Shown: positions 531 to 61,618, counted from the first letter of the stretch. The stretch is DNA of 64,000 nucleotides from an uncultured Gammaproteobacteria bacterium (GCA_964394685.1 CAYMYO010000002.1:34148-98147), one strand, 5' to 3'. Program-made: numbers and translations. Notes: a model not told the origin generated them from the sequence alone.

Positions 531-2336
531 ATGTGTATGGAGCAAGAACAATTATTAAATTACGATCAAAGGGCTGCACAAATAGGTCTTCAACAGGCCG
601 CTGAGGTAGGTCCTCATGCATACCAAGCTCGGTTAACTGGAATCAATAGAGATAAACAAAGTGCTCAGAATGAATTAGATAATCCAACAGATGCCTACTG
701 GAGTGGTGAATATCACACTGGTGTTGATGGTCATGGTAATGCTGCACTCGTCACGCCTGAACTCGGAATGATACCAGGAAGAGTTCATCGGGAAAATAGT
801 AATGCCATGTCCGATTCAACGGTAAGAAATGTTGCATATACATTTGATAGAATTCAAGAAGGGATACTTCCACATTCTTCATGGAGAGCGGCGATAGAAC
901 AAGTAAGACAATTTCGGGCCGTTCAACAAGAGGCAATGACACTACAAGATAATGAATCACTTCTTGGATTTGTAATGAATGGATTAACAACAGAGGATGG
1001 TATTGCGCTCATGCGCATGACTCGTCATGGAAATACTATTTCTTATGAAACGCGATTAGTTGGTGGAATGTCGGAAGGAGCTGCGAAAGATCTCCTGGAC
1101 CGGTTTTCTTCAAAAGATGCAGAACGAGTTTCATTAAGAGAAGGGAAAAATAGTCCATTATATTCTGTGATCAGAGGGAATATTTCCGTTGATTTAAAAA
1201 ATAAAAAACAGATTGCTGCCATTGTGCAAGACGTGTTGGATACGCGTCATGAAACAAAGTCTCAAACTGTGAGTCTTGGTACGTGCCGCACGGTCGCAGT
1301 AAACGAAGAAAAAGTTTTTAAAAAACCTATTGCGATAAAACCAATTGCTATCAAACAACAAAAGCAAGAATATGCAATAAAACAAAAACATAACAATCCA
1401 TTTGATGATTTGCCACTAGCTCCACCATACATACACACTGAAAAACAACCTAGTCAAAAACAAATATGGGATGTGTCTGTCAGACCATGGATTATTTTTG
1501 ATACACCATCAAAAAAAGAAGTACCTGTATTTTCTGAGCCGTCAGAAAAGAAAAAACAAAAAATAAATAAACCCGTTATTGACCAACGCATCCATGAAGA
1601 AAAAATACCAGAAGAAGTTACACGAGACATAACAATGACAGAACAATCTTTGGTTACTCAACCAACGATTGTATTTCAAAAAGAACCCGATTTTGTTTTG
1701 CGGGAAGAAAAACAACAAACACAAGAAAAACATGTTGTTCAAATACAGAGAGTGTTGCCTATAACAACATTTATAATAATGACCGATGTTCAAACAGTTC
1801 GTACATACGAGGAAAAAGCAATTGTGATATCGCTTGCAGCGATAAAACCAACATATAGAGAACAAACAATTCAGGAAGATATAATGGTGGCAGAACATAT
1901 TCCTATTAATGTTGAGCACCAACAAGCACAACAAGATGTTGTTATGCAGTCTAAAACAGATTCTTCTTTTGAAGTTGACCAACTCATAATTCAAGATATT
2001 AGTACAATGACAGCGACATTAGAAAAACAGCTTGCGCGGGGAGAATTAGCAAACGCAGTCACAAAATTACTATGGATGGAATTAAACGATCAGAATGAAT
2101 TTGTACCAGTCGAAGAAGTTGAAATATCGCAAGACGCAACGCATACACGGCATAATCTTCTTCATTTTTTACGCAAAGTGGTACAAAAGTACGTTGGAGA
2201 TGATGTTATTAGACAAAGGGTTGTACAACGGATTACTTCAGATAAATGGGATAATGAGATTGAGGAAATAGCAGAATATCTTACTATCCTCAAAACCCAA
2301 CGATTGTATAACCATCTATTTGCGGTAGTCAATTAA
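531..2336 (+). CDS. hypothetical large Gln/Lys/Glu-rich soluble protein
   Basis: 601-aa ORF with no TM helices; low-complexity K/Q/E-rich middle region with a short tandem KPIAIKPIAIK; first gene of a co-directional block. Confidence 0.5.
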   Translation: MCMEQEQLLNYDQRAAQIGLQQAAEVGPHAYQARLTGINRDKQSAQNELDNPTDAYWSGEYHTGVDGHGNAALVTPELGMIPGRVHRENSNAMSDSTVRNVAYTFDRIQEGILPHSSWRAAIEQVRQFRAVQQEAMTLQDNESLLGFVMNGLTTEDGIALMRMTRHGNTISYETRLVGGMSEGAAKDLLDRFSSKDAERVSLREGKNSPLYSVIRGNISVDLKNKKQIAAIVQDVLDTRHETKSQTVSLGTCRTVAVNEEKVFKKPIAIKPIAIKQQKQEYAIKQKHNNPFDDLPLAPPYIHTEKQPSQKQIWDVSVRPWIIFDTPSKKEVPVFSEPSEKKKQKINKPVIDQRIHEEKIPEEVTRDITMTEQSLVTQPTIVFQKEPDFVLREEKQQTQEKHVVQIQRVLPITTFIIMTDVQTVRTYEEKAIVISLAAIKPTYREQTIQEDIMVAEHIPINVEHQQAQQDVVMQSKTDSSFEVDQLIIQDISTMTATLEKQLARGELANAVTKLLWMELNDQNEFVPVEEVEISQDATHTRHNLLHFLRKVVQKYVGDDVIRQRVVQRITSDKWDNEIEEIAEYLTILKTQRLYNHLFAVVN

Positions 2337-8334: not shown

Positions 8335-8889
8335 ATGGAACAGGTCATACTCGTTGATGAGGAAAATAATCAAATCGGTATTGCTGATAAAGAAACCGTG
8401 CACACAAAAAATACTCCGCTTCATCGTGCGTTCTCGTTGTTTCTTTTTAATTCCAAAAAACAACTTCTTGTAACACAACGCGCATTAAATAAGAAAACAT
8501 TTCCGGGAGTGTGGACTAATAGCGTGTGCGGACATGTGTCTCTGGGCGAAGCCGCGTTTGACGCGGTGAAACGAAGATTAAGTGATGAGTTACATGTTGT
8601 TGCTACGGATATAAAAGAAGTTTCTCCGTATCGCTACCGGTTTGCAGATGTAAACGGTGTTGTTGAAAATGAAATCTGTCCTATTTTTATCGGATTTACT
8701 AACGAAGATCCAAAACCAAGTAAGAGTGAAGTAGAAGCATGGAAATGGGTTGGTTGGAGCGAATTTTTGAAAACAGTTAAAGAACATCCCGGAACCTATT
8801 CACCGTGGAGCGAAGAAGAAGCGGTTATACTGAACAATTGTCATCCTGAACTCGTTTCAGGATCCCAGCCGCTTTCAGATGGATGCTGA
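8335..8889 (+). CDS. idi: isopentenyl-diphosphate delta-isomerase, type 1 (Nudix)
   Basis: HRAFSLFLFN...LLVTQRALNKKTFPGVWTNSVCGH matches the IDI-1 signature; the last ~18 aa (NNCHPELVSGSQPLSDGC) and the stop are encoded by the repeat element at 8838-8908. Confidence 0.75.
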   Translation: MEQVILVDEENNQIGIADKETVHTKNTPLHRAFSLFLFNSKKQLLVTQRALNKKTFPGVWTNSVCGHVSLGEAAFDAVKRRLSDELHVVATDIKEVSPYRYRFADVNGVVENEICPIFIGFTNEDPKPSKSEVEAWKWVGWSEFLKTVKEHPGTYSPWSEEEAVILNNCHPELVSGSQPLSDGC

Positions 8890-8915: not shown

Positions 8916-9971
8916 TCATACTTCAACGGATAAATCCGGAACTGCTTCGATAGTGTGCCAGTTAACAGGAGTTCCACGGAAGAATGCATAGCTTCCAATA
9001 TATGCGGCGTTATCCGTGCAGAGCGCGACGGGAGGGCAATGGAAATTAAAAGGTAATTTCTGAAACTTTTTACGAAGTCTTAGATTTGCAGCAACACCGC
9101 CGCCAATTAAAATCGATGAAGCGTTATGCAATTCAGCTGCTTTTATTGTTTTTGCTACCAATACATCAGTAATTGCTTCTTGGACTTCATACGCAAATTC
9201 ACTTTGCAATACTTTTTCTGATTTGGATCCTGAAACAAGTTCAGGATGACAAGCATGCCATGTTCTCATGATTGCAGTTTTGAGTCCTGAAAACGAAAAA
9301 TTGAGTGTATCGTCATGAAGGAGTGGGCGGGGTAATTGTATTTTGTATTTAGTATTTTGTATTTTGTATAACGAGGCAGATTCTTGGATTGCGAGACCTC
9401 CTCGGGAACCAAATCCCAAAAGCCGGGCAGTTTTGTCAAACGCCTCTCCAGCTGCATCATCAATAGTTCCTCCGAGCCATTTCAATTCTTTAACACTATT
9501 CATGAGAAATAGTTCTGTGTGTCCACCTGAGACAACAAGACCGATTGCTGGAAATGCAATTGGACAGTCCCTCGACTTCGCTCGGGACGAATTTTCATTC
9601 GAAGACGAAAGAAAATTCGCATACAAATGAGCAAGAACATGATTAACTGGAATAAGAGGTTTTTTGGTCACATATGCAATTGTTTTAGCAGTTTCAACAC
9701 CAATAAGAAGTGATCCGATGAGTCCCGGACCGATGGTAACTGCAATTGCGTCAATTGAATCATACATGAGATGAGCTTCTTCCAACGCTTCTTGAATCGT
9801 CGGGAGAATACATTTTAATTGTTCCCGCGATGCTACTTCCGGTACAATCCCGCCATATTTTTCATGCATGGCAGAAGATGATGCTATGACATTACTTAGA
9901 ATTGTTGTTCCGTCTTTTATAACAGCAGAAGCTGTTTCATCACAGGATGATTCAATTGCGAGTATGGTCAT
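8916..9971 (-). CDS. tsaD: tRNA N6-adenosine threonylcarbamoyltransferase TsaD (Kae1/YgjD family) with three in-frame repeat-derived insertions
   Basis: MTILAIESSCDETASAV, VSGGHTEL and FSFSGLKT motifs; extra loops SSSNENSSRAKSRDC, KIQNTKYKIQ and ACHPELVSGSKSEKV are encoded by repeat sequences. Confidence 0.8.
   Translation of the reverse strand: MTILAIESSCDETASAVIKDGTTILSNVIASSSAMHEKYGGIVPEVASREQLKCILPTIQEALEEAHLMYDSIDAIAVTIGPGLIGSLLIGVETAKTIAYVTKKPLIPVNHVLAHLYANFLSSSNENSSRAKSRDCPIAFPAIGLVVSGGHTELFLMNSVKELKWLGGTIDDAAGEAFDKTARLLGFGSRGGLAIQESASLYKIQNTKYKIQLPRPLLHDDTLNFSFSGLKTAIMRTWHACHPELVSGSKSEKVLQSEFAYEVQEAITDVLVAKTIKAAELHNASSILIGGGVAANLRLRKKFQKLPFNFHCPPVALCTDNAAYIGSYAFFRGTPVNWHTIEAVPDLSVEV
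9225..9252. repeat. half copy of the family-1 element (hairpin A plus ATGACAA terminus) inside tsaD
   Basis: GGATCCTGAAacaagTTCAGGATGACAA; translated in-frame on the minus strand as CHPELVSGS. Confidence 0.55.
9338..9369. repeat. GTATTTT heptamer tandem repeat (about 4.5 units) inside tsaD
   Basis: gtattttgtatttagtattttgtattttgtat; encodes KIQNTKYKIQ on the minus strand; same array at 38289-38327. Confidence 0.6.
9566..9601. repeat. hairpin repeat family 4 (TCCCGAGCGRAGTCGAGGGA, R = a/g) inside tsaD
   Basis: The reverse complement of gtccctcgacttcgctcgggac is near-identical to the intergenic atcccgagcggagtcgagggatt at 17498-17520; followed by the palindrome cgaattttcattcg. Confidence 0.5.
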
Positions 9972-28017: not shown

Positions 28018-28088
28018 TTGTCATGCTGAATTTATTTCAGCATCTATTTAAAAACTAACGGGATCCCGAAACGAGTTCGGGATGACAA
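28018..28088. mobile_element. 70-bp twin-hairpin TIR element (family 1), copy 2, inverted orientation, exactly between the metG stop and the tatD start
   Basis: TTGTCAT-[GCTGAA-tttat-TTCAGC]ATC-tatttaaaaactaacg-[GGATCCCGAA-acgag-TTCGGGAT]-GACAA. Confidence 0.6.
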
Positions 28089-32778: not shown

Positions 32779-33723
32779 CTATTCTCTTTTTTTCAGCCAC
32801 TTAACAACAGTTTCTACTAGTTCATCTTCTCTTCCCAAAAAATTATGAACAGCATTTTTTATAACAAATGCACTGAAATCTTTTGAGGCAGTTCTTTCTC
32901 TAATAAGTTCTATAGCTTTTTTTTGTTCTATTCCTGTAGCTACATCATTCTCCGGATTAATCACGACGATAGGAAGTTTTATTTTGTTAAAATTTTTGTA
33001 TTCTTTCTCCGGATGCGTTCCGTTGAAAACAAAACAGTTATTGTTCGGATTTGTATAATTCCAGAAAGTAGCTGCAGAAATCGGACAATTACTCCAGAGA
33101 CGAATAGGCATTAAATCCTTTCCTTTTCCGTCGTCAATCATACGTTTGGCAATCAGAGAATATTTTGGCCAATCAGTGATGCTAGAGTCGAACTGATAAT
33201 GAACATCTGCGGTGGTTAATAAAATTATTTTCGACACCGGATGATCGGGAATATTTACTAAATAATAACAAATTTTGTGAGGACCCAAGCTGTGTCCTTG
33301 TAAAATAATTTCAGAATAACCTAAGTTTTGAACATAACTGATTACACCCTGAAGATCATATACAGAGTCTTCAAGAATATCGAACATTGAACCACCCTGT
33401 TCCCAAATGAAACCAGTTGAAGTTTTTTTAATTAGATCCGCCATATAATCATGTCCGCGATTGTTGAATGTAAGAAACGCATACCCGTTGCGCGGGTAAT
33501 TCTCTCCCATTATTGTTACAAAATGATTTTGAATAAAATGTCCTTCTTTTCCGTGGACATGAACTATTATTTTGTTAGATGGTTTTGGAGGTTCGAAAAG
33601 AATGCAATCGAGTTCGATACCGTCAGTAGAATACGTTTTGTGCAGGGTAACTTGAGAAGCATGATGAATTTTCATAATAGCAATTATAACATTTTTAGTT
33701 TTGCATCGTAATTTCATTGCCAA
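32779..33723 (-). CDS. alpha/beta hydrolase (paralog of 19551-20465)
   Basis: GHSLG nucleophile elbow; HVHGKEGHF...FNNRGHDY shared with the paralog. Confidence 0.55.
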   Translation of the reverse strand: MAMKLRCKTKNVIIAIMKIHHASQVTLHKTYSTDGIELDCILFEPPKPSNKIIVHVHGKEGHFIQNHFVTIMGENYPRNGYAFLTFNNRGHDYMADLIKKTSTGFIWEQGGSMFDILEDSVYDLQGVISYVQNLGYSEIILQGHSLGPHKICYYLVNIPDHPVSKIILLTTADVHYQFDSSITDWPKYSLIAKRMIDDGKGKDLMPIRLWSNCPISAATFWNYTNPNNNCFVFNGTHPEKEYKNFNKIKLPIVVINPENDVATGIEQKKAIELIRERTASKDFSAFVIKNAVHNFLGREDELVETVVKWLKKRE

Positions 33724-33761
33724 CTCAAATAATTTCTAACCGGTGCTATAATCGTTTAAGA

Positions 33762-36629
33762 ATGAAATCACTATCTTCGCAAGAAAGAATTTTAAATAAA
33801 GAACAGAGAAAAGCCGTTCGGTTTGGGAGTGGGCCGCTTTTGATTATCGCAGGCGCGGGCACCGGAAAAACAACAGTGATAACGGAACGGATCAAATATC
33901 TGATTTTATCTAAAAAAGCACATCCTCAAGAAATTCTCGCCCTCACGTTTACGGAAAAAGCGTCCCGAGAAATGGAAGAGCGGATTGATTTGGCAATGCC
34001 ATACGGAACCACACAAATGTGGATCTCAACATTTCATGCATTTTGCGACCGAATACTTCGAAATGAAAGTCTTGCGATAGGGCTGGATCCAAATTATAAA
34101 CTCATGGGGGAAGCAGAGACCATTCAGTTTTATAAAGATCATCTCTTTGATTTCACCTTATCGTATTTCCGCCCGCTCGGAAATCCGACGAAATTTATTT
34201 CCGGCATGCTCCAACATTTTAATAGGCTGAAAGATGAAGACATAGATCCGACTACATATATTTCCTGGGTACAGAAACAAAAAGCATTTGAAAGCGAGGA
34301 AAAGAATAAATACATAGAATTAGCCAACGCATACAGGAAATACGAAGAATTAAAAATAAAAGAGAGTGTGGTTGATTATTCGGATCTTATCGCTAATACT
34401 CTCAAATTATTCCGCTCACGTAAAAAAATTCTTGAGGGATACCAAAAACAATTTAAATATATTTTGATTGATGAATTTCAGGATACGAATATTGCGCAGA
34501 ACGAACTGGCAATCCTTTTAGCTGGCAAAAGGCAGAATCTTACCGTTGTTTTCGATGACGATCAAAGTATTTATAAATTCCGCGGGAGTTCAATGTCAAA
34601 TACCATGCAATTTACAAAACGATTCAAAAAGTCGAAGATTATTGTTCTCACCAAAAACTACCGTTCGAGTCAGGAAATTCTTGATAGGTCCTATGACCTT
34701 ATTCAGCATAATAATCCGGATCGGTTGGAGGTTGTTGAAAAAATAAATAAGAGACTTGAATGTATTCGAAGAGTAAACGGAGAAAAAATTGAAGTACTCT
34801 ATACAGAGCGGGTTGAGGATGAAGCGGAAGCGGTGGCAAAAGAAATTAAAAAAACGATTGAACACGGTAGTACTTACAAAGATATCGCGATTCTAGTGCG
34901 TGCGAACAATCACGCAGAACCATTTGTTCGGGCACTATCGAGAGCCGGTATTCCATATCAATTCTTAGGCCCCGGGCAGCTATTTAAGCAACCAGAAGTA
35001 AAAGACATCATCGCATATTTAAAAGTACTCTATGATATCCACGATAGTGTTGCCATGTACCGGGTGCTTACCATGGACGTATTCAAGATATCTCCTCGGG
35101 ATGTCGCTGAAATTGTCTCCTATGCAAAACAACACGCAATTTCCATTTTTTCAGCCTGTGAAGAACAACAAGAAAAGATTTTGACAGTAAAACCAGTGGT
35201 TGCGATGATTTATAAACATCTCGGGCTCATTAAAAACGAAACTGCTGGACAGATTGCCTATTACTTTTTACAAGAATCCGGATTATTAAAAGAATTTACC
35301 ACCATTGATACCACAAAAGAACAGCGTAAAGCTGAAAATATCGCAGCGTTTTTCGATAAACTCAAAACATATGAAGTTGATCACGATGACGCAAGTATCT
35401 TTCGTGTTGTTGACTGGCTTGATTTGTCCATGGATCTTGGAGAATCACCACGTGCTGTCAATTCCGATTGGAATGAGGTAGATGCGGTGAACATATTGAC
35501 AATCCATTCAGCAAAAGGTCTGGAATTCCCAATTGTATTTTTGGTCAACCTTGTAAGCGCCCGGTTTCCAACAAATGAGCGTCATGAACAAATTCCCATT
35601 CCTGACGAGCTTGTGAAAGAAATTCTTCCTGTTGGAGACTATCATCTTGAAGAAGAACGCAGACTTTTTTACGTCGGGATGACGCGGGCACGGGATATGT
35701 TATACATGACCGGAGCCCAGTTTTATGGTGACGGAAAACGCGAGAAAAAAATTTCACCATTCGTCGAAGAAGCGATAGGAGAAAAACCCTCCTTCTCCGC
35801 CAGCTGGCGGATTCGGGCGAGCAAGCAACTTTTTCTTATTGATTGGAAACAAGAAAAAGAATCACAGAAAAAAATAACTACACCTCCGGTATCGTATCTT
35901 TGGTATACACATATAGAATCATTTCGCAGGTGCCCCTTGCAATATAAATACCGGTACGTTATCAAAATCCCTGTTCCAACATCGGCGGTTCTTGGGTTTG
36001 GGGATATCATGCATAAAACCATGCAGGAGTTTTATCAACAAGTGATGAAAGGAAAACATCCGACAAAAGAAACGCTTCTTTTAATCTATGAAAATAAATG
36101 GTCCGCCAGTGGGCGGATTGGTTTTAAGATTGAAACATATGAAAAAGAAATGAAGAAACACGGTGAAGAACTTCTTAAAGAATATTTTGTAAAGGGATAT
36201 GACCAAAAAACTAAAACAATTGCAGTAGAACAGAGATTTAAGATTAAAATCTCAAACGAGATTACTCTTGGAGGAAGAATTGACAGAGTTGATAGAAAAC
36301 CTGACGGATCCTTGGAGATCATTGACTATAAAACAGGTGCTGCACCAAAAAAGCGAGATGTATCAGAAGATTTTCAGCTGTCTCTGTACGCGCTTGCGGC
36401 TACTGACAAAGGAGTGTTCGGAGAAATATCAGAGAATATCATGGTTTCATTTTATTTTTTCGAAGGTCAGGAGTGCATGAGCGCGACACGGTCAAAAGAA
36501 CAGTTAGAAAAAGTAAAAGATGAGATAGTGAGTACTGCACAGGCAATGGGAACAAGTGAATTTCAACCAACACAAGGAATGTACTGCGCGTTTTGTGAAT
36601 TCAGGCTTTTGTGTGAGGCGTGGAAGTGA
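33762..36629 (+). CDS. UvrD/PcrA-family helicase fused to a C-terminal PD-(D/E)xK Cas4/AddB-like Fe-S nuclease domain
   Basis: Walker A AGAGTGKTTV; helicase motifs DEFQDTN, VGMTRAR; C-terminal RRCPLQYKY...IDYKTG...CAFCEFRLLC is a four-Cys Cas4-like nuclease; ATG at 33762 preferred over TTG at 33717; contains the in-frame GC palindrome at 35797. Confidence 0.75.
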   Translation: MKSLSSQERILNKEQRKAVRFGSGPLLIIAGAGTGKTTVITERIKYLILSKKAHPQEILALTFTEKASREMEERIDLAMPYGTTQMWISTFHAFCDRILRNESLAIGLDPNYKLMGEAETIQFYKDHLFDFTLSYFRPLGNPTKFISGMLQHFNRLKDEDIDPTTYISWVQKQKAFESEEKNKYIELANAYRKYEELKIKESVVDYSDLIANTLKLFRSRKKILEGYQKQFKYILIDEFQDTNIAQNELAILLAGKRQNLTVVFDDDQSIYKFRGSSMSNTMQFTKRFKKSKIIVLTKNYRSSQEILDRSYDLIQHNNPDRLEVVEKINKRLECIRRVNGEKIEVLYTERVEDEAEAVAKEIKKTIEHGSTYKDIAILVRANNHAEPFVRALSRAGIPYQFLGPGQLFKQPEVKDIIAYLKVLYDIHDSVAMYRVLTMDVFKISPRDVAEIVSYAKQHAISIFSACEEQQEKILTVKPVVAMIYKHLGLIKNETAGQIAYYFLQESGLLKEFTTIDTTKEQRKAENIAAFFDKLKTYEVDHDDASIFRVVDWLDLSMDLGESPRAVNSDWNEVDAVNILTIHSAKGLEFPIVFLVNLVSARFPTNERHEQIPIPDELVKEILPVGDYHLEEERRLFYVGMTRARDMLYMTGAQFYGDGKREKKISPFVEEAIGEKPSFSASWRIRASKQLFLIDWKQEKESQKKITTPPVSYLWYTHIESFRRCPLQYKYRYVIKIPVPTSAVLGFGDIMHKTMQEFYQQVMKGKHPTKETLLLIYENKWSASGRIGFKIETYEKEMKKHGEELLKEYFVKGYDQKTKTIAVEQRFKIKISNEITLGGRIDRVDRKPDGSLEIIDYKTGAAPKKRDVSEDFQLSLYALAATDKGVFGEISENIMVSFYFFEGQECMSATRSKEQLEKVKDEIVSTAQAMGTSEFQPTQGMYCAFCEFRLLCEAWK
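35797..35810. repeat. GC palindrome type A (CCGCCAGCTGGCGG) inside the helicase-nuclease gene
   Basis: Perfect 14-bp palindrome translated as SASWR. Confidence 0.5.
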
Positions 36630-37574
36630 TTAATTCTTGTCATGCTGAACTCGTTTCAGCATCTGTCTGAAAACAGCTGGGATCCCGAAACAAGTTCGGG
36701 ATGACAAAATAGCTGAAATAGGGTAATAGAGTGAAGCTCCTCCAAAACCCTCTTTAAATTTCGTAAATCCTTTCCATTCGAAAAATTGCTTTGGCTTTCG
36801 TTCATCCCATACACCAATAAAGTCAAATACGGTACACTTTCGCTTTTTTCCAATTTTAAGCGCATGCCATATAAGAAGTGTCGGCGCAAATAGCCTTTTT
36901 CCTTCATGAGTTGCTCCAGCAATCCAATAAAACGCAGTGTTATTCCAAAATAGTAACAATATGCCGGCAACGACGCGATCAGTATTGGTTTTAGCAAGAA
37001 GAATCGTCGCGTGTTTTGGATAGAATAATTTCCAAAGACGGTCAATGCCATGCGTGGTAATGCCACCAAACATTCCCGCGCCCTTGGATTTAATAGCTAT
37101 TAAATCGTTAATATCATGAGACTCTACAATCGTAAGGTTATTTTTTTCCGCTTTCCGAACAGCCCTGCGTTTAGCAGATGTAAATTTGGAAAATAGTTCT
37201 TTTGTACTTCCTGATAGGTCAATAACAATAGTTTTCGTTGGAATAAATGGGGAAGTCATGATGTGAAAAAACTTCGAAAGAGATGAAAGATATTTATTAA
37301 ATTCTTCTTGCGATACATCTTCTTTCGGTTCAACACTTAGTTGAGTTACGCGGAGTTTTTTTAGTGTCATAACCATTTTTGGGAGATAGGGAAGATGTTC
37401 AGGTCGTTGAAGCTTTGCAAGAGTTCCAATGAGCGGAATGCGGCGGTAAAAAATAGCAGTGCCATCAATAGTCGCTACGTTCCAATGCAATGCTTTAATA
37501 TACGCTTGATAAAGAGAGGATTGTTGCAGTTCCATAATTTTTCTTGTCATCCCGAATTTATTTCGGGATCCCAT
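36630..37574 (-). CDS. FemABX-family peptidyl/aminoacyl transferase (peptidoglycan bridge formation), paralog 1
   Basis: GATHEGKRLFAPTLLIWHALKIGKKRKCTVFDFIGVW...WKGFTKFKEGFGG is FemABX/GNAT-like; the first 13 codons (MGSRNKFGMTRKI, start from the element's ATGACAA terminus) and the last 24 codons lie inside family-1 elements; the native start is probably MELQQ at 37535. Confidence 0.6.
   Translation of the reverse strand: MGSRNKFGMTRKIMELQQSSLYQAYIKALHWNVATIDGTAIFYRRIPLIGTLAKLQRPEHLPYLPKMVMTLKKLRVTQLSVEPKEDVSQEEFNKYLSSLSKFFHIMTSPFIPTKTIVIDLSGSTKELFSKFTSAKRRAVRKAEKNNLTIVESHDINDLIAIKSKGAGMFGGITTHGIDRLWKLFYPKHATILLAKTNTDRVVAGILLLFWNNTAFYWIAGATHEGKRLFAPTLLIWHALKIGKKRKCTVFDFIGVWDERKPKQFFEWKGFTKFKEGFGGASLYYPISAILSSRTCFGIPAVFRQMLKRVQHDKN
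36638..36707. mobile_element. 70-bp twin-hairpin TIR element (family 1), copy 3; translated as the C-terminal 24 aa and stop of fem paralog 1
   Basis: TTGTCAT-[GCTGAA-ctcgt-TTCAGC]-atctgtctgaaaacagctg-[GGATCCCGAA-acaag-TTCGGGAT]-GACAA; the minus-strand frame reads SSRTCFGIPAVFRQMLKRVQHDKN*. Confidence 0.6.
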
Positions 37575-37614
37575 CCGTTTTCAGATGGATGCTGAAACAA
37601 GTTCAGCATGACAA
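37545..37614. mobile_element. 70-bp twin-hairpin TIR element (family 1), copy 4, between the two fem paralogs
   Basis: TTGTCAT-[CCCGAA-tttat-TTCGGG]-atcccatccgttttcagatgg-[ATGCTGAA-acaag-TTCAGCAT]-GACAA; an extra partial hairpin-B arm (ttatttcagcatc) at 37626-37638 provides the KMLK* end of paralog 2. Confidence 0.6.
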
Positions 37615-37622
37615 TACACAAG

Positions 37623-38570
37623 TTATTTCAGCATCTTTAATATTCCCCATCTTATGGAATCAGTAATACAGTAAATACGATATAAGAAAGGCTTGAGAAC
37701 AAGATCATAAGATCCGACAAATTCAATAAGTTTTGGAGAAAAGCCCGCTTTAAACCTGTGGAATCCATACCACGGATCTTTTGGGTCTGGTCCGCCAGCT
37801 GGCGGAGGACCAATTGCTCCCCACAGATCAAATGCTTGAAGTCCTTTGGACTTTCCCCATTTTATTAATTCCCATAGTAACAGGTTTGGCGCCATAACTT
37901 CACGATGTTCCCTTAAAGATGCTCCGTATGGATAGTACATAACACCTTCGTGAATAAATATAACCCATGCGGCAACTATTATATTGTTATATTTGGCTGT
38001 CCACAGAGTTGCAATTCCAGCCTTGTGCATAATGTTCCACATTGTTCGTGTGTATGTTTCGTTGTGTGCATAAAATCCTTGTCTGCTTGTTGTTTCGTAA
38101 GAAAGCTTCATATAGGTTTCAAATGCATTCTCGCTATTATCTTCTTGGATTTTTACATTATATTTTTGGGCTATTTTTATGTTGTATCTTGTTTTTGGAT
38201 GCATGGCTTTCAGAAGGTCTTCCTCAGATTTTGTCAGATCAATCACAAACGTATATTTGGTAAATAGAGGATGATGACTGGGGATAAAGTATTTTGTATT
38301 TTGTATTTTGTATTTTGTATTTTGTATGACATTTGGCTCTATTTGTATAAATATTGCATGTTTTTGTTTTCCTAATAGTATTAATTCTTCTATCATCTTT
38401 TTTGTTGGGTTGGGGCCTTTGGGAAAAAAGCCAATAGTGAATGGAGTGTAAGGGATGCGGTGAAAAGAAATATACCAAGCATAGAGCTTCACAACATCGA
38501 CTCCCATTGCTTTTCTAAATTCTGCCCACGCTTTTGTTTGAAGTGGATGAGTCATAGTGATATTATACAA
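37623..38570 (-). CDS. FemABX-family peptidyl/aminoacyl transferase, paralog 2, with in-frame heptamer-repeat and GC-palindrome insertions
   Basis: Fem-like core (YAWYISFH..., MAPNLLLWELIKWGKSKGLQAFDLWG, FKAGFSPK); KYKIQNTKYKIQNTKY is encoded by (GTATTTT)n and PPAGGPDP by CCGCCAGCTGGCGG. Confidence 0.6.
   Translation of the reverse strand: MYNITMTHPLQTKAWAEFRKAMGVDVVKLYAWYISFHRIPYTPFTIGFFPKGPNPTKKMIEELILLGKQKHAIFIQIEPNVIQNTKYKIQNTKYFIPSHHPLFTKYTFVIDLTKSEEDLLKAMHPKTRYNIKIAQKYNVKIQEDNSENAFETYMKLSYETTSRQGFYAHNETYTRTMWNIMHKAGIATLWTAKYNNIIVAAWVIFIHEGVMYYPYGASLREHREVMAPNLLLWELIKWGKSKGLQAFDLWGAIGPPPAGGPDPKDPWYGFHRFKAGFSPKLIEFVGSYDLVLKPFLYRIYCITDSIRWGILKMLK
37792..37805. repeat. GC palindrome type A (CCGCCAGCTGGCGG) inside fem paralog 2
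   Basis: Perfect 14-bp palindrome flanked by ggt...aggacc; translated as PPAGG. Confidence 0.5.
38289..38327. repeat. GTATTTT heptamer tandem repeat (5.5 units) inside fem paralog 2
   Basis: (gtatttt)x5 + gtat; a similar flank ggggataaag...gtatgac compares with ggggtaattg...gtataac at the tsaD copy. Confidence 0.6.
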
Positions 38571-38751
38571 CTAGTATGAAAAAACATACTTCTTCTTGGT
38601 TTCCCTTTCTCGATACGCGTATATTTCCTGGTATTATTTCTTTCAAATGTGTAAAAGGTCCATGTAGGTTTTTCTTACAGATGGAAATCATACTATCGCT
38701 TCTTGTTGTTATCGGAACATGTTTGTTAATTATTGTGAAGTATTTACCTCG

Positions 38752-40605
38752 TTAAAGGAGCATGTCGTCTTCATGAAATCCATGTGTTGCATCGATAGAA
38801 ACGTGTTTTTCAAGAATATGCTCCGGAATATCAGAAATAAATCGCGAGATCATGTTTTGTGTTCTTGTTCCGAAGAATAGTCTTCTGTTTGCATAGGTCA
38901 GATATAACCGTTCTTTTGCCCGTGTTATCCCTACATAACATAGTCTCCTCTCTTCCTCGAGTTCATCCCGGTCCATGAGCGCCCGCGCGTGGGGAAACAA
39001 TCCTTCTTCCATGCCAACAATATAGACAATCGGGAATTCCAACCCCTTCGCAGCATGCAATGTCATCATTGTAACAGCATTGCGTTGTCTATCATCCTTA
39101 ATTTTATTGCTATATTTCTCTTCAAGAAGCGCTACTGTTTCCAAAAACTCTGATAACACTGGATATTCAGTAGCAACGGACCTGAGTTCTTTAATGTTTT
39201 CAAGTCGTGTTGCTTCTTCTTCAACGTTGGCATCATAGAGCTCTAGATAGCAAGTTGTGTTGAGAACTTTATCCATAAGTTCAAGTGTGCTAAATGATAT
39301 GAGTTTTGCATCTGTTTTCACTGTTTGAGAAAACGTGACAAATTTTTTTAATCGTCCTAACCCAAGTTTTTCAATGCGTCTATAGGAAACAGTATCTTTT
39401 GGGTTAGCAAGAACCTTTAGATACGCAAGTACGTCTTTAATTTCTTTCCGGTCATAAAATCTAGTTCCTCCGACAAGAACATAAGGAACGCCAGCGCGTA
39501 AAAACGCTTCTTCAAGAACTCTTGATTGCGCATTCGTTCTGTAGAGAATTGCATGGTCGGTATATGGACGATTTGCCTGAAGAATTGTCGTAACAATAAA
39601 TGAAGCCTCGTCGTGTTCAGTTCTCGCTTCGTAGAGCACTACTTGATCACCACCGTGTTTATCAGTCCATAATGTTAATATTGGATGAGATGTATTTTTG
39701 GAAATAATGTTTGTAGCTGCATCCAAAATAGTTTGTGAAGACCGATAATTTTGTTCCAAGTGAAACTCCTTGATGTCTTTAAAATCGTGTTTGAAGTTCG
39801 TAATATTACGAAAATCTGCCCCCCGAAACCTGTAAATACTTTGTGATGCATCACCAACAACTGTAATGTTTTTATGACGTTTGGATAGCATCGTAGTAAG
39901 AGTGTATTGCGCGTGATTGGTATCTTGGTATTCATCAATAAGAATATACATATATTGTTCTTGATATACCCCAAGCACATCAGGATGTTTGGTAAATAAT
40001 TCAACAGTTTTTGAAAGTAAATCATCAAAATCAAGCGCATTATTTTCGATGAGTTTTTTTTGGTAAAGAAGATAGACACGAGCAACAGTTTCCTGAAAGT
40101 AGCCGCGAGCAAACTGGGGATATTCAAGGGGTCCTATCAACTCGTTTTTTGCTTCTGAGATAGTTGTCGCGATGGCGTGAGGTTTGAAGTCTTTTGTCGA
40201 TATATCTGCTTCTTTCATAACATCTTTTATTACATCGAGCTGATCTTGTTCGTCATAAATAGTAAAATTAATAGGAATGCCCATGTGTTTCCCGTCACGC
40301 CTCAAAATTTTTGCGCAAATTGAATGAAACGTACCCATCAAAGGGAAACCAATTGACAATTGACAGTTAACAAGTAACAGATTTTTGATCCGGTCTTTCA
40401 TTTCTCCTGCTGCTTTATTGGTAAAGGTGACCATGAGAATGCGGTCGGGGTCAACCTGTTTTTCAAATATAAGATAGGCTACTTTATAAGTGAGTACTCT
40501 GGTTTTTCCACTGCCGGCTCCTGCTAATATAAGCACCGGTCCGTCAGTAGCAATAACAGCTTTTTGTTGATCGCGGTTCAGTTCATTGAGGAGCGCGCTT
40601 GTCAT
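38752..40605 (-). CDS. pcrA: ATP-dependent DNA helicase PcrA/UvrD
   Basis: ILAGAGSGKTRVLT, TFTNKAAGEM, DEYQDTN, QNYRSS and VGITRAK motifs; start taken at MTSALLNELN. Confidence 0.8.
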   Translation of the reverse strand: MTSALLNELNRDQQKAVIATDGPVLILAGAGSGKTRVLTYKVAYLIFEKQVDPDRILMVTFTNKAAGEMKDRIKNLLLVNCQLSIGFPLMGTFHSICAKILRRDGKHMGIPINFTIYDEQDQLDVIKDVMKEADISTKDFKPHAIATTISEAKNELIGPLEYPQFARGYFQETVARVYLLYQKKLIENNALDFDDLLSKTVELFTKHPDVLGVYQEQYMYILIDEYQDTNHAQYTLTTMLSKRHKNITVVGDASQSIYRFRGADFRNITNFKHDFKDIKEFHLEQNYRSSQTILDAATNIISKNTSHPILTLWTDKHGGDQVVLYEARTEHDEASFIVTTILQANRPYTDHAILYRTNAQSRVLEEAFLRAGVPYVLVGGTRFYDRKEIKDVLAYLKVLANPKDTVSYRRIEKLGLGRLKKFVTFSQTVKTDAKLISFSTLELMDKVLNTTCYLELYDANVEEEATRLENIKELRSVATEYPVLSEFLETVALLEEKYSNKIKDDRQRNAVTMMTLHAAKGLEFPIVYIVGMEEGLFPHARALMDRDELEEERRLCYVGITRAKERLYLTYANRRLFFGTRTQNMISRFISDIPEHILEKHVSIDATHGFHEDDMLL

Positions 40606-40623
40606 AGAGTATAATCTTATCAT

Positions 40624-61548: not shown

Positions 61549-61618
61549 TGTCATGCTGAATTCATTTCAGCATCTATCTGAAATCGGCTGGGATCCCGAA
61601 ACAAGTTCGGGATGACAA
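61549..61618. mobile_element. 70-bp twin-hairpin TIR element (family 1), copy 5, flanked by a 16-bp perfect direct repeat
   Basis: TTGTCAT-[GCTGAA-ttcat-TTCAGC]-atctatctgaaatcggctg-[GGATCCCGAA-acaag-TTCGGGAT]-GACAA; GTAGAAAGTTATTAAT at 61525-61540 and again at 61626-61641. Confidence 0.65.

What the first reader, a model, noticed from the sequence alone, without database searches (positions are those of the whole stretch)
38289..38327. The same GTATTTT heptamer array sits in-frame in two unrelated genes (fem paralog 2 and tsaD)
(GTATTTT)5.5 at 38289-38327 and (GTATTTT)~4.5 at 9338-9369 share similar flanks (ggggataaag...gtatgac versus ggggtaattg...gtataac). Both are translated on the minus strand as KYKIQNT repeats. 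Because 3 x 7 nt equals 7 codons, only multiples of three units keep the frame, so unit gain or loss by slippage would frameshift the gene. This is a potential phase-variation switch for a cell-wall (Fem) gene and for tsaD. Fem paralog 1 lacks the array.
Basis: seen in the sequence. Interest (0 to 1): 0.65.

Follow-up and report, generated by a model that had tools for sequence, protein, structure and literature searches.

The report
In-frame 7-base repeats in essential genes
Two housekeeping genes of this ultra-small (CPR, Gottesmanbacteria-like) bacterium each carry a translated run of the 7-base unit AAAATAC in a surface loop, and this is one case of a widespread, apparently undescribed habit of these bacteria rather than an on/off switch for these two genes.

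Summary
(GTATTTT)5.6 at 38289-38327 is perfect, and (GTATTTT)4.9 at 9336-9369 has one mismatch. Both are read on the minus strand as KYKIQNT peptides, in a FemAB-family gene and in tsaD.

The phase-variation reading is not supported:
- A relative at 76-79% protein identity has both arrays at the same length.
- Strain pairs of relatives at 95-99.9% DNA identity never differ in unit number.
- None of 84 heptamer arrays in related DNA splits a gene.
- The same array sits in MurB, LeuRS, PheT, ArgRS, GatA, UvrB, UvrC, TrmD, Pth and other housekeeping genes.

What is there is more unusual. In Gottesmanbacteria and other CPR lineages the same loop positions carry 7-nt-periodic arrays of the same length and register, but with at least nine different units. 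Period 7 dominates the tandem repeats in about 1 Mb of related DNA (67 arrays; periods 6, 8 and 9 have 12-14 each; shuffles give about 1). The arrays avoid stop codons and map to low-confidence loops. They diverge less at synonymous sites than the rest of the gene (1/21 versus 45/144).

Best explanation: translated heptanucleotide microsatellites whose length is held in frame by selection, homogenised by slippage or conversion, and tolerated only in loops.

The parts
38289..38327 (-). Perfect heptanucleotide array. The coding strand reads (ATACAAA)5.6, translated IQNTKYKIQNTKY (residues 82-94 of the FemAB-family protein).
   Evidence: TRF (5.6 copies, 100%). Sequence. ORF. AF2 model pLDDT <50 at residues 83-88 with no regular secondary structure. 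No RNA structure, 0 kcal/mol.
9336..9369 (-). Heptanucleotide array. The coding strand reads TACAAAA TACAAAA TACTAAA TACAAAA TACAA, translated YKIQNTKYKIQ (TsaD residues ~201-211), immediately before the conserved LPRP.
   Evidence: TRF (4.9 copies, 92%).. A 5-residue gap opposite solved TsaD 8iey. AF2 pLDDT <50 at 202-219.
37623..38570 (-).
   Evidence: Pfam PF02388 1.8e-27 and PF13480. Homologs are named FemA/FemB family or lipid II:glycine glycyltransferase in Gottesmanbacteria.
8916..9971 (-). Host gene 2: tsaD (tRNA t6A37 threonylcarbamoyltransferase). It carries three loop inserts absent from solved TsaD: a hairpin-type insert (res ~122-135), the heptamer array, and a 26-nt hairpin element (CHPELVSGS).
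   Evidence: Pfam PF00814 3.3e-80. Alignment to PDB 8iey shows gaps at all three places.
40350..40373 (-). Weaker member of the same class: CAATTGA x3.4 in the UvrD/PcrA helicase gene (LVNCQLSIG). It lies in the loop before the GTFHS motif, where metagenome contig L105 carries an AAAATAC array (SQNTKYKIQNT).
   Evidence: TRF.. Pfam PF00580 for both proteins.
1546..1572 (+). Weaker member of the same class: AAAACAA x3.7, in frame in ORF 531..2336 (EKKKQKINKP). The host has no Pfam match.
   Evidence: TRF.. Pfam.

Best explanation
Both arrays are translated heptanucleotide microsatellites whose length is held in frame by selection.

A DNA-level process creates runs of about 4-6 copies of a 7-nt unit and keeps them homogeneous. 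The likeliest process is replication slippage, or conversion between units, for which 7-nt units seem favoured in these genomes.

Inside genes, selection leaves only arrays that meet three conditions. Their total length keeps the frame. Their unit has no stop codon in the three frames it is read in. They fall in a surface loop that tolerates 10-13 extra or replaced residues.

AAAATAC meets these conditions well. It is open in all six frames, it uses common A-rich codons, and it encodes K-Y-K-I-Q-N-T, an alternating polar/hydrophobic stretch followed by N-T. I infer that this peptide suits a small beta-hairpin. That would explain why the unit recurs in many genes and lineages.

One- or two-unit slips must occur and would knock the gene out, but they are purged rather than used as a switch.

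Shown: the periodicity, translation, loop location, conservation of site, length and register with changing units, the excess of period 7, reduced nucleotide divergence, and the absence of out-of-frame alleles.

Inferred: slippage or conversion as the homogenising mechanism, and the protein-level filter.
For: (1) Same site, different unit. At the TsaD loop, 12 of 19 species with the 20-residue loop have lag-7 identity of 0.62 or more. The units are TACAAAA, TTGAAAA, TGCCAAA, TTCACAA, TTTAAAG, TTCAGAA, GKCAAAA and others, all 12 codons long and in the same register. Mean autocorrelation peaks at lags 7/14/21 (0.57/0.55/0.54 against a baseline of about 0.3). At the Fem loop the units are ATACAAA, CATTCAG, AATTAAA and CATTTAG.

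(2) Covariation. TsaD loop positions 10 and 17 are identical in 36 of 53 distinct loops, against 12.3 expected (FF 16, YY 9, CC 8). Fem positions 6 and 13 are identical in 20 of 35, against 5.7 expected.

(3) Translation. The unit is altered exactly where a stop codon would arise: TTGTAAA in the TTGAAAA array of L004, and TTTCAAG in the TTTAAAG array of L008.

(4) Excess of period 7. Arrays with at least 3.3 copies in 0.99 Mb: 67 for period 7, against 14, 12 and 13 for periods 6, 8 and 9, and about 1 in Markov shuffles.

(5) Too perfect for their age. Synonymous change at identical K/Y/I/Q/N/T codons is 1/21 in the arrays and 45/144 elsewhere (p=0.009). Window versus L061 shows 1 nt difference in 33, where the gene-wide rate predicts about 7.

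(6) Not a discrete element. There are no conserved flanks, arrays start and end at any phase of the unit, and compound arrays of neighbouring units are common.

(7) Loop location.

(8) The literature reports heptameric SSRs as over-represented in many bacterial genomes and proposes a polymerase-footprint slippage explanation (Rehm et al. 2015, PMC4692102, citing Mrazek 2007).
Against: Simple slippage cannot take a loop from 2 to 5 units in one step in an essential gene, because +1 and +2 units are frameshifts.

The two TsaD length classes differ by 6 codons (14 versus 20 residues), which is not a whole number of units. The Fem classes do differ by 7 codons, which is 3 units.

MurB orthologs carry AAAATAC arrays of 10, 12 and 13 residues, not steps of 7.

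No unit-number change was seen between strains, so slippage itself was never observed in a CPR gene.

The same unit sits in two unrelated genes of one genome. It also recurs at the same TsaD site in distant classes (L038, L047, L057, L126). Both could point to insertion or transfer rather than in-situ evolution.

The locus sample is biased, because the peptide YKIQNTKY was one of the seeds used to fetch it.
Confidence: 0.58

Rival explanations
1. Phase-variation (contingency) switch. Slippage by one or two units reversibly turns the Fem gene and tsaD off and on, giving population heterogeneity that is selected for.
For: The unit length is not a multiple of 3, and the Fem array is a perfect 5.6-copy tract. 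Reduced nucleotide divergence suggests ongoing repeat dynamics. Relatives have arrays directly upstream of start codons that could tune expression. A non-CPR contig pair shows a 2-unit AAAATAC polymorphism.
Against: Unit number is the same in relatives at 76-79% protein identity and in 5 strain pairs. None of 84 arrays is out of frame. The hosts are housekeeping, mostly essential genes in many lineages. The tracts are short (4-6 units) and lie mid-gene, not near the N-terminus. N-terminal enrichment is the signature reported for phase-variable genomes (Lin and Kussell 2012, PMC3315296). An OFF state of tsaD would be costly, since t6A is essential in most bacteria (my own knowledge).
Confidence: 0.08
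2. Inserted mini-element. Pre-formed heptamer arrays of about 30-40 nt are pasted into genes by a lineage-specific process, such as templated or reiterative synthesis at breaks or an unknown mobile system. Only in-frame, loop-located copies survive.
For: The same AAAATAC unit sits in two unrelated genes of this genome, and also in dozens of gene families. It recurs at the same TsaD site in distant CPR classes while closer relatives have other units or none. A 5-unit array cannot be reached by viable single-unit steps. The closest Fem relative (L069, 80% id) lacks exactly 21 nt. These genomes clearly host other tiny in-frame inserts, including hairpins that are sometimes nested inside arrays.
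Against: There are no conserved ends, no target motif and no target-site duplication. Arrays start at any phase of the unit, and their lengths vary continuously from 28 to 48 nt. Units are extremely diverse rather than forming a few families. Arrays replace native loop sequence at constant length rather than simply adding to it. No candidate enzyme was found linked to the arrays.
Confidence: 0.2
3. Selected protein motif. The loops need a K-aromatic-x-I-x-N-x beta-hairpin duplicated strand, and the nucleotide periodicity is a by-product of codon choice.
For: The pattern K-Phi-x-Phi-x-N/S-x-K-Phi-x-I-K is conserved in 55 of 120 TsaD homologs. The last strand aligns with the strand before PRP in ordinary TsaD. 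The alternating polar/hydrophobic pattern suits a hairpin (inference).
Against: A 7-residue repeat needs only 21-nt periodicity, yet the observed fundamental period is 7 nt, with the same unit read in all three frames. No protein constraint explains that. Identity of the aromatic residue at i/i+7 covaries, although a hairpin pairs i with j, not i with i+7. The same arrays occur in unrelated proteins and in intergenic DNA. AF2 gives low confidence and no strand for the array in either protein. Many orthologs do without the array.
Confidence: 0.1
4. Assembly or sequencing artefact in a metagenome-assembled genome.
For: The source is a MAG contig, and short repeats can be mis-assembled.
Against: The arrays (39 and 34 nt) are shorter than a read. 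Both keep long ORFs intact. The same arrays at the same sites occur in independent assemblies from ENA, JGI and NCBI.
Confidence: 0.01

Closest known systems
Over-representation of heptameric simple sequence repeats in prokaryotic genomes (Mrazek et al. 2007, as summarised in Rehm et al. 2015, PMC4692102), including the GGGAATC repeats of Xanthomonas and the GGGGA(T/C)T repeats of Nostoc
   Same: Tandem 7-nt units, a few to about a dozen copies, many loci per genome, and period 7 favoured over periods 6 and 8. Slippage linked to the polymerase footprint is the proposed cause.
   Different: Those repeats are reported mainly in intergenic regions and are G-rich. Here the arrays are mostly inside protein-coding genes, in frame, translated and A-rich on the coding strand. 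They sit at loop positions conserved across orthologs, and the unit changes between lineages.
STRR (short tandemly repeated repetitive) heptanucleotide sequences of heterocystous cyanobacteria (Calothrix/Nostoc; Mazel et al. 1990, from memory; mentioned in PMC4692102)
   Same: Families of tandem heptamers dispersed around a genome, with function unknown.
   Different: STRRs are a few fixed unit families per genome and are non-coding. Here there are dozens of units and a coding location, in CPR bacteria.
Rickettsia palindromic elements inserted in frame in protein-coding genes (Ogata et al. 2000, from memory)
   Same: Selfish-looking repeats that persist inside essential genes because they keep the frame and land on the protein surface.
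   Different: RPEs are 100-150 bp palindromic elements with defined ends. The arrays here are 30-40 nt direct repeats without ends or secondary structure (0 kcal/mol). The 26-nt hairpin element also present in this tsaD is the closer analogue of an RPE.
SSR-mediated phase variation (contingency loci of Haemophilus, Neisseria, Helicobacter, Campylobacter)
   Same: A non-triplet tandem repeat inside an ORF, where loss or gain of a unit shifts the frame.
   Different: The hosts are housekeeping genes, the tracts are short and mid-gene, the length is fixed among strains and relatives, and no OFF alleles were found.
Small dispersed repeats (SDR) of Nostoc, described as very small mobile elements found nested in tandem heptameric repeats (Elhai et al. 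2008, from memory)
   Same: Tiny hairpin inserts nested inside heptamer arrays are seen here too: L021 and L080/L119 at the nucleotide level, and P0146, P0177 and P0186 at the protein level.
   Different: A different phylum and different sequences. Here both the arrays and the nested hairpins are translated.

Membership tests
SSR contingency locus (phase variation) | Tandem repeat with a unit that is not a multiple of 3, inside the ORF or promoter | tested here: met
   7-nt unit, in frame, 5.6 and 4.9 copies.
SSR contingency locus (phase variation) | Unit number polymorphic among strains or within populations, including out-of-frame (OFF) alleles | tested here: not met
   Same length in L061 and L062. 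5 strain pairs are identical. 0 of 84 arrays are out of frame. Reads of this organism itself were not available.
SSR contingency locus (phase variation) | Host genes are dispensable surface, restriction-modification or host-interaction genes, with the repeat near the 5' end | tested here: not met
   The hosts are tsaD and many other housekeeping genes. The arrays lie at 58% and 27% of the ORF length.
Prokaryotic heptameric SSR / STRR-type repeats | Head-to-tail copies of a 7-nt unit | tested here: met
   TRF. Autocorrelation peaks at lags 7/14/21.
Prokaryotic heptameric SSR / STRR-type repeats | Period 7 over-represented relative to neighbouring periods and to chance in the lineage | tested here: met
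   67 arrays (period 7) against 14, 12 and 13 (periods 6, 8, 9) and about 1 in shuffles, in 0.99 Mb of related loci. In the window, 2 strong arrays against 0 in shuffles.
Prokaryotic heptameric SSR / STRR-type repeats | Predominantly intergenic location, as described for Xanthomonas, Nostoc and Calothrix | tested here: not met
   About 70 of 84 arrays lie inside long open frames.
In-frame selfish palindromic elements (RPE-like) / MITE / REP | Discrete element with conserved ends or an inverted-repeat structure | tested here: not met
   No conserved flanks or ends. The array folds at 0 kcal/mol.
In-frame selfish palindromic elements (RPE-like) / MITE / REP | Copies inside ORFs that keep the frame and map to the protein surface | tested here: met

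The most novel reading that the evidence does not exclude
CPR bacteria may have an active, lineage-wide process that repeatedly rewrites the same loop-coding segments of essential genes as 7-nt-periodic arrays. The process could be a peculiarity of their replicase or repair system, or a dedicated templated-synthesis or conversion system. It would swap the unit while keeping length and register, and keep the arrays homogeneous against mutation. That would be an undescribed mode of protein-loop evolution, and a standing source of frameshift-prone sites in minimal genomes.
Probability: 0.25. Interest if true: 0.8.

Novelty: new variant of a known kind. Interest (0 to 1): 0.62.

Why it matters
Non-triplet tandem repeats are normally purged from coding sequence, above all from essential genes. 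Here they are common in essential genes of bacteria with minimal genomes. They sit at loop positions conserved across orthologs, stay unusually homogeneous, and change unit between lineages.

If this holds up in a whole-genome census, it matters in four ways:
- It identifies a strong, phylum-specific mutational bias (7-nt slippage or conversion). That bias may be tied to the CPR replication and repair repertoire.
- It offers a simple origin for many of the lineage-specific insertions that make CPR proteins hard to align and model.
- It warns annotators and structure predictors that KYKIQNT-like peptides are repeat-derived loops, not domains.
- It provides natural frameshift-prone sites whose population dynamics can be tested with read data.

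Tried and rejected
- **Source genome.** I looked for the source genome or identical proteins so that I could inspect other contigs. The look-up of encoding contigs found nothing for the window TsaD, P0121 or P0001. The genome is not among the GTDB species representatives; the best TsaD match is 73%. A genome-wide census for this organism was therefore impossible.
- **One unit per genome.** I tested whether each genome has its own unit shared by all its arrays. Rejected: single loci carry several unrelated units.
- **Conserved flanks or target site.** I tested for these among 123 AAAATAC arrays. There are none.
- **OFF alleles.** I edited every array by +-1 and +-2 units. The 8 flagged cases are arrays upstream of start codons, not split genes. 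The broken tsaD in L011 is a scaffold gap of Ns.
- **Strain-level unit changes.** The only one found (L092/L178, 2 units plus one ACA) lies in a eukaryote-like contig flanked by (GT)n(GA)n. It is not informative for CPR.
- **Peptide query.** (KYKIQNT)6 against 5.8 billion proteins returned only short spurious ORFs (two earlier attempts failed on parameter limits).
- **RNA structure of the arrays.** None, 0 kcal/mol.
- **Literature.** I found no paper linking heptamer or tandem repeats with CPR/Patescibacteria, and no occurrence of KYKIQNT.
- **NJ tree of TsaD.** It is only indicative. I do not rely on it for counting gains and losses.

Full report
**1. The observation**

Both arrays are present as described.
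- TRF reports period 7, 5.6 copies and 100% identity at 38289-38327.
- TRF reports period 7, 4.9 copies and 92% identity at 9336-9369 (sequences).
- A 17-nt probe with up to three mismatches hits only these two loci. It gives 7 overlapping hits against 0.6 expected, and no shuffle reaches 7.
- A lag scan gives strong arrays only at lag 7, and none in 30 dinucleotide shuffles.

Both arrays are in frame on the minus strand.
- ORF 37623..38570 is a FemAB-family protein and reads ...EPNVIQNTKYKIQNTKYFIPSHHP...
- ORF 8916..9971 is TsaD and reads ...ESASLYKIQNTKYKIQLPRP....
- Fem paralog 1 has no array.

Homolog names place the window in Candidatus Gottesmanbacteria (Microgenomates, CPR/Patescibacteria). 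The best non-self homologs are 80% identical.

These codons are read in different frames relative to the arrays. The similarity is not kept in orthologs and is not seen among 123 other AAAATAC arrays.

**2. What orthologs show**

Protein alignments (A1, A2) show variable inserts at exactly these two positions. Many of the inserts are two tandem 7-residue repeats with different sequences.

I fetched 60 tsaD loci from species-representative genomes and Fem orthologs by exact-protein look-up. I then read the nucleotides at both sites.

At the TsaD loop:
- The segment before LPRP is 12 codons long in many species and is 7-nt periodic in the same register.
- The unit differs between species: TACAAAA (window, L061), TTGAAAA (L004), TGCCAAA (L006), TTCACAA (L007), TTTAAAG (L008), TTCAGAA (L009), GKCAAAA (L011). 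L013, L023 and L059 carry decayed versions.
- Over 19 species, nucleotide autocorrelation peaks at lags 7, 14 and 21 (0.57, 0.55, 0.54, against a baseline of about 0.3). The fundamental period is therefore 7 nt, not 21.

At the Fem loop:
- L062/L063 carry the same ATACAAA array with three substituted codons, at identical length.
- L064 has CATTCAG x4.7, L065 has AATTAAA x4.7, and L067 has a decayed CATTTAG.
- L069, the closest relative (80% identity), has no array and is exactly 7 codons shorter. That is 21 nt, or 3 units.

Across 120 homologs each, loop lengths fall into two classes.
- TsaD: 14 residues (n=22) or 20 residues (n=55).
- Fem: 9-10 residues (n=24) or 16-17 residues (n=55).

Residues seven apart covary.
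- TsaD positions 10 and 17 are identical in 36 of 53 distinct loops, against 12.3 expected.
- Fem positions 6 and 13 are identical in 20 of 35, against 5.7 expected.

**3. The arrays are translated and lie in loops**

Where a perfect unit would create a stop codon in one of its three frames, exactly that copy is altered. L004 has TTGTAAA, which avoids TGA. L008 has TTTCAAG, which avoids TAA.

Against solved TsaD (8iey), the window protein has gaps at three places:
- a 13-residue insert;
- the array (5 residues);
- the CHPELVSGS hairpin element.

The AlphaFold models agree.
- TsaD: pLDDT <50 over residues 202-219 (shallow alignment, mean pLDDT 73).
- Fem: mean pLDDT 82.6, with pLDDT <50 at residues 83-88 and no regular secondary structure at the array.

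As RNA, the arrays have no structure (0 kcal/mol).

**4. The phenomenon is general**

TRF on the window plus related loci shows that period 7 dominates the tandem repeats.
- With at least 3.5 copies: 61 period-7 arrays, against 11 (period 6), 11 (period 8) and 8 (period 9).
- In 0.99 Mb of tsaD loci, with at least 3.3 copies: 67 arrays, against 14, 12 and 13. First-order Markov shuffles give about 1.
- Units are very diverse.

Of these, 47 arrays lie in open frames of at least 150 residues with the A-rich strand coding.

Pfam identifies the host genes:
- translation and tRNA: LeuRS, PheT, ArgRS, a GatA-type amidase, TrmD, Pth, TsaE, a MiaB-like enzyme;
- cell wall: MurB, Mur ligases;
- DNA repair: UvrB, UvrC, UvrD, PolX;
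- other: AdoHcyase.

Some host sites recur.
- MurB carries the array at one site in seven contigs.
- TsaD carries it at the window's site in L126.
- UvrD carries it in L105, at the site where the window's own UvrD gene has a weaker CAATTGA array (40350-40373).

Caveats:
- The tsaD locus set was partly seeded with the peptide YKIQNTKY. This inflates AAAATAC among distant lineages.
- Some metagenome hits are clearly not CPR. L092/L178, for example, is flanked by dinucleotide microsatellites.

**5. Test of the phase-variation reading**

- Unit number is identical between the window and relatives at 79% (TsaD) and 76% (Fem) protein identity.
- Unit number is identical within five strain pairs of relatives at 95-99.9% nucleotide identity.
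- I edited each of 84 arrays by +-1 or +-2 units. No edit restored a longer gene at an intragenic array. The eight flagged arrays sit just upstream of start codons.
- The one disrupted tsaD (L011) contains a scaffold gap.
- The host genes are housekeeping genes, and the arrays are mid-gene. Work on SSRs in coding regions associates phase variation with N-terminal enrichment (PMC3315296).

I therefore do not regard the arrays as dedicated switches. Read-level data for this organism remain untested.

**6. Evidence for a DNA-level homogenising process**

The arrays are too perfect for their age.
- Between the window and L061, 1 of 11 array codons differs, against 156 of 320 elsewhere (p=0.012).
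- Between the window and L062, 3 of 13 differ, against 156 of 293 (p=0.045).
- Restricted to identical K, Y, I, Q, N and T residues, synonymous change is 1/21 in the arrays and 45/144 elsewhere (p=0.009).

Either new substitutions are erased, or the nucleotide sequence itself is under selection. Erasure could occur by slippage or by conversion between units without net length change. Compound arrays of neighbouring units are common in the AAAATAC flanks. So are decayed arrays. Both fit a microsatellite life cycle.

There are no conserved ends, no target motif and no phase preference at array borders. This argues against a discrete mobile element.

**7. Most likely mechanism**

These are translated heptanucleotide microsatellites held in frame by selection. 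A 7-nt-biased slippage or conversion process generates and homogenises them. Such a bias has been noted for heptameric SSRs in many bacterial genomes, with a polymerase-footprint explanation (PMC4692102). Selection then removes everything except in-frame, stop-free arrays in permissive loops.

AAAATAC recurs for three reasons:
- it is open in all six frames;
- it uses frequent codons;
- it encodes an alternating polar/hydrophobic peptide with an N-T turn (the suitability of this peptide for a hairpin is my inference).

**8. Unexplained points**

- How does a five-unit array arise in an essential gene, when one- and two-unit steps are frameshifts?
- Why do the TsaD length classes differ by 18 nt rather than 21 nt?
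- Why does the same unit occupy two unrelated genes here, and the same TsaD site in distant classes (L038, L047, L057, L126)?

These points keep a templated-insertion model alive at about 0.2.

**9. Comparison with known systems**

The arrays work like prokaryotic heptameric SSRs and cyanobacterial STRRs. However, they are intragenic and translated, unlike those.

Like Rickettsia palindromic elements, they are repeats that survive in frame on protein surfaces. However, they lack ends and palindromy.

They meet the sequence definition of a contingency locus but fail its population and gene-class criteria.

I found no paper describing heptamer arrays in CPR genes in the searchable library.

**10. 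Verdict**

- The feature is a new variant of a known kind.
- Interest is moderate to high, because of the conserved-site, changing-unit pattern in essential genes.

Noticed in passing
window 8839-8864(-), 9226-9251(+), 28062-28087(+), 36638-36663(-), 36681-36706(+), 37588-37613(+), 61592-61617(+): A 26-nt hairpin element, GATCCTGAAAC(A/G)AGTTCAGGATGACA, occurs 7 times (0 expected). Its stem shows compensatory variants (CCTGAA/TTCAGG, CCCGAA/TTCGGG, GCTGAA/TTCAGC) and folds as 8 bp with a 5-nt loop. Most copies lie at gene ends or between genes. One lies in frame inside tsaD (CHPELVSGS). One extends the Nudix ORF, and two extend the C-terminus of Fem paralog 1. It looks like a REP/MITE-like or terminator-like dispersed element.
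   Followed up: partly
window 37785-37835 (minus strand; Fem residues ~252-259): A GC-rich mini-palindrome, CCGCCAGCTGGCGG, encodes GPPPAGGPD. It is present in some Fem orthologs and absent (GP-DPDPKDP) in others. AF2 pLDDT is <50 there. Similar PAG-type inserts (LPAGKAG, LPRRQAG, PPAGEAG) occur in TsaD orthologs.
   Followed up: partly
window 9555-9615 (minus strand; TsaD residues ~122-135): A third TsaD insert, SSNENSSRAKSRDC, contains a GTCCC...GGGAC hairpin and is absent from solved TsaD. Orthologs carry variable, sometimes much longer, inserts at the same site.
   Followed up: partly
L021 ~610-650; L080/L119 MurB; proteins P0146, P0177, P0186: GC-rich hairpin inserts are nested inside heptamer arrays. 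For example, KCQMIN-PPAGEAG-AKCQIK in L021 compares with the uninterrupted array in L006 from the same MAG. KIQNTKYKI-PRSRTSSLRGK-QNTK occurs in MurB. This resembles the small dispersed repeats nested in heptamer repeats reported for Nostoc (from memory).
   Followed up: no
L050 9960-9990, L051 1438-1471, L052 10138-10180, L007 11798-11821, L045 17102-17128: In relatives, heptamer arrays also sit immediately upstream of start codons. One abuts the ATG of tsaD in L050. Unit-number change there would alter 5'-UTR or promoter spacing rather than the reading frame.
   Followed up: partly
L092 vs L178: Two metagenome contigs with identical flanks differ by two AAAATAC units and one ACA unit. The flanks carry (GT)n(GA)n microsatellites and look eukaryotic. 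The unit is thus also an ordinary polymorphic microsatellite outside CPR.
   Followed up: yes
window 33717-40623; L065, L067: The gene order is conserved in relatives at 66-72% Fem identity: AddA/UvrD-like helicase-nuclease, two tandem FemAB paralogs, then a PcrA/UvrD helicase. Only the first Fem paralog (the one next to PcrA) carries the loop array.
   Followed up: no
TsaD in L004, L005, L006, L008, L011, L021, L023, L047 and others: tsaD is a hot spot for arrays. Up to three or four separate loop sites in one gene carry heptamer arrays, often with different units within the same gene (for example L008 AAAGTTT and AATTCTC; L047 has three AAATAC-type arrays).
   Followed up: partly
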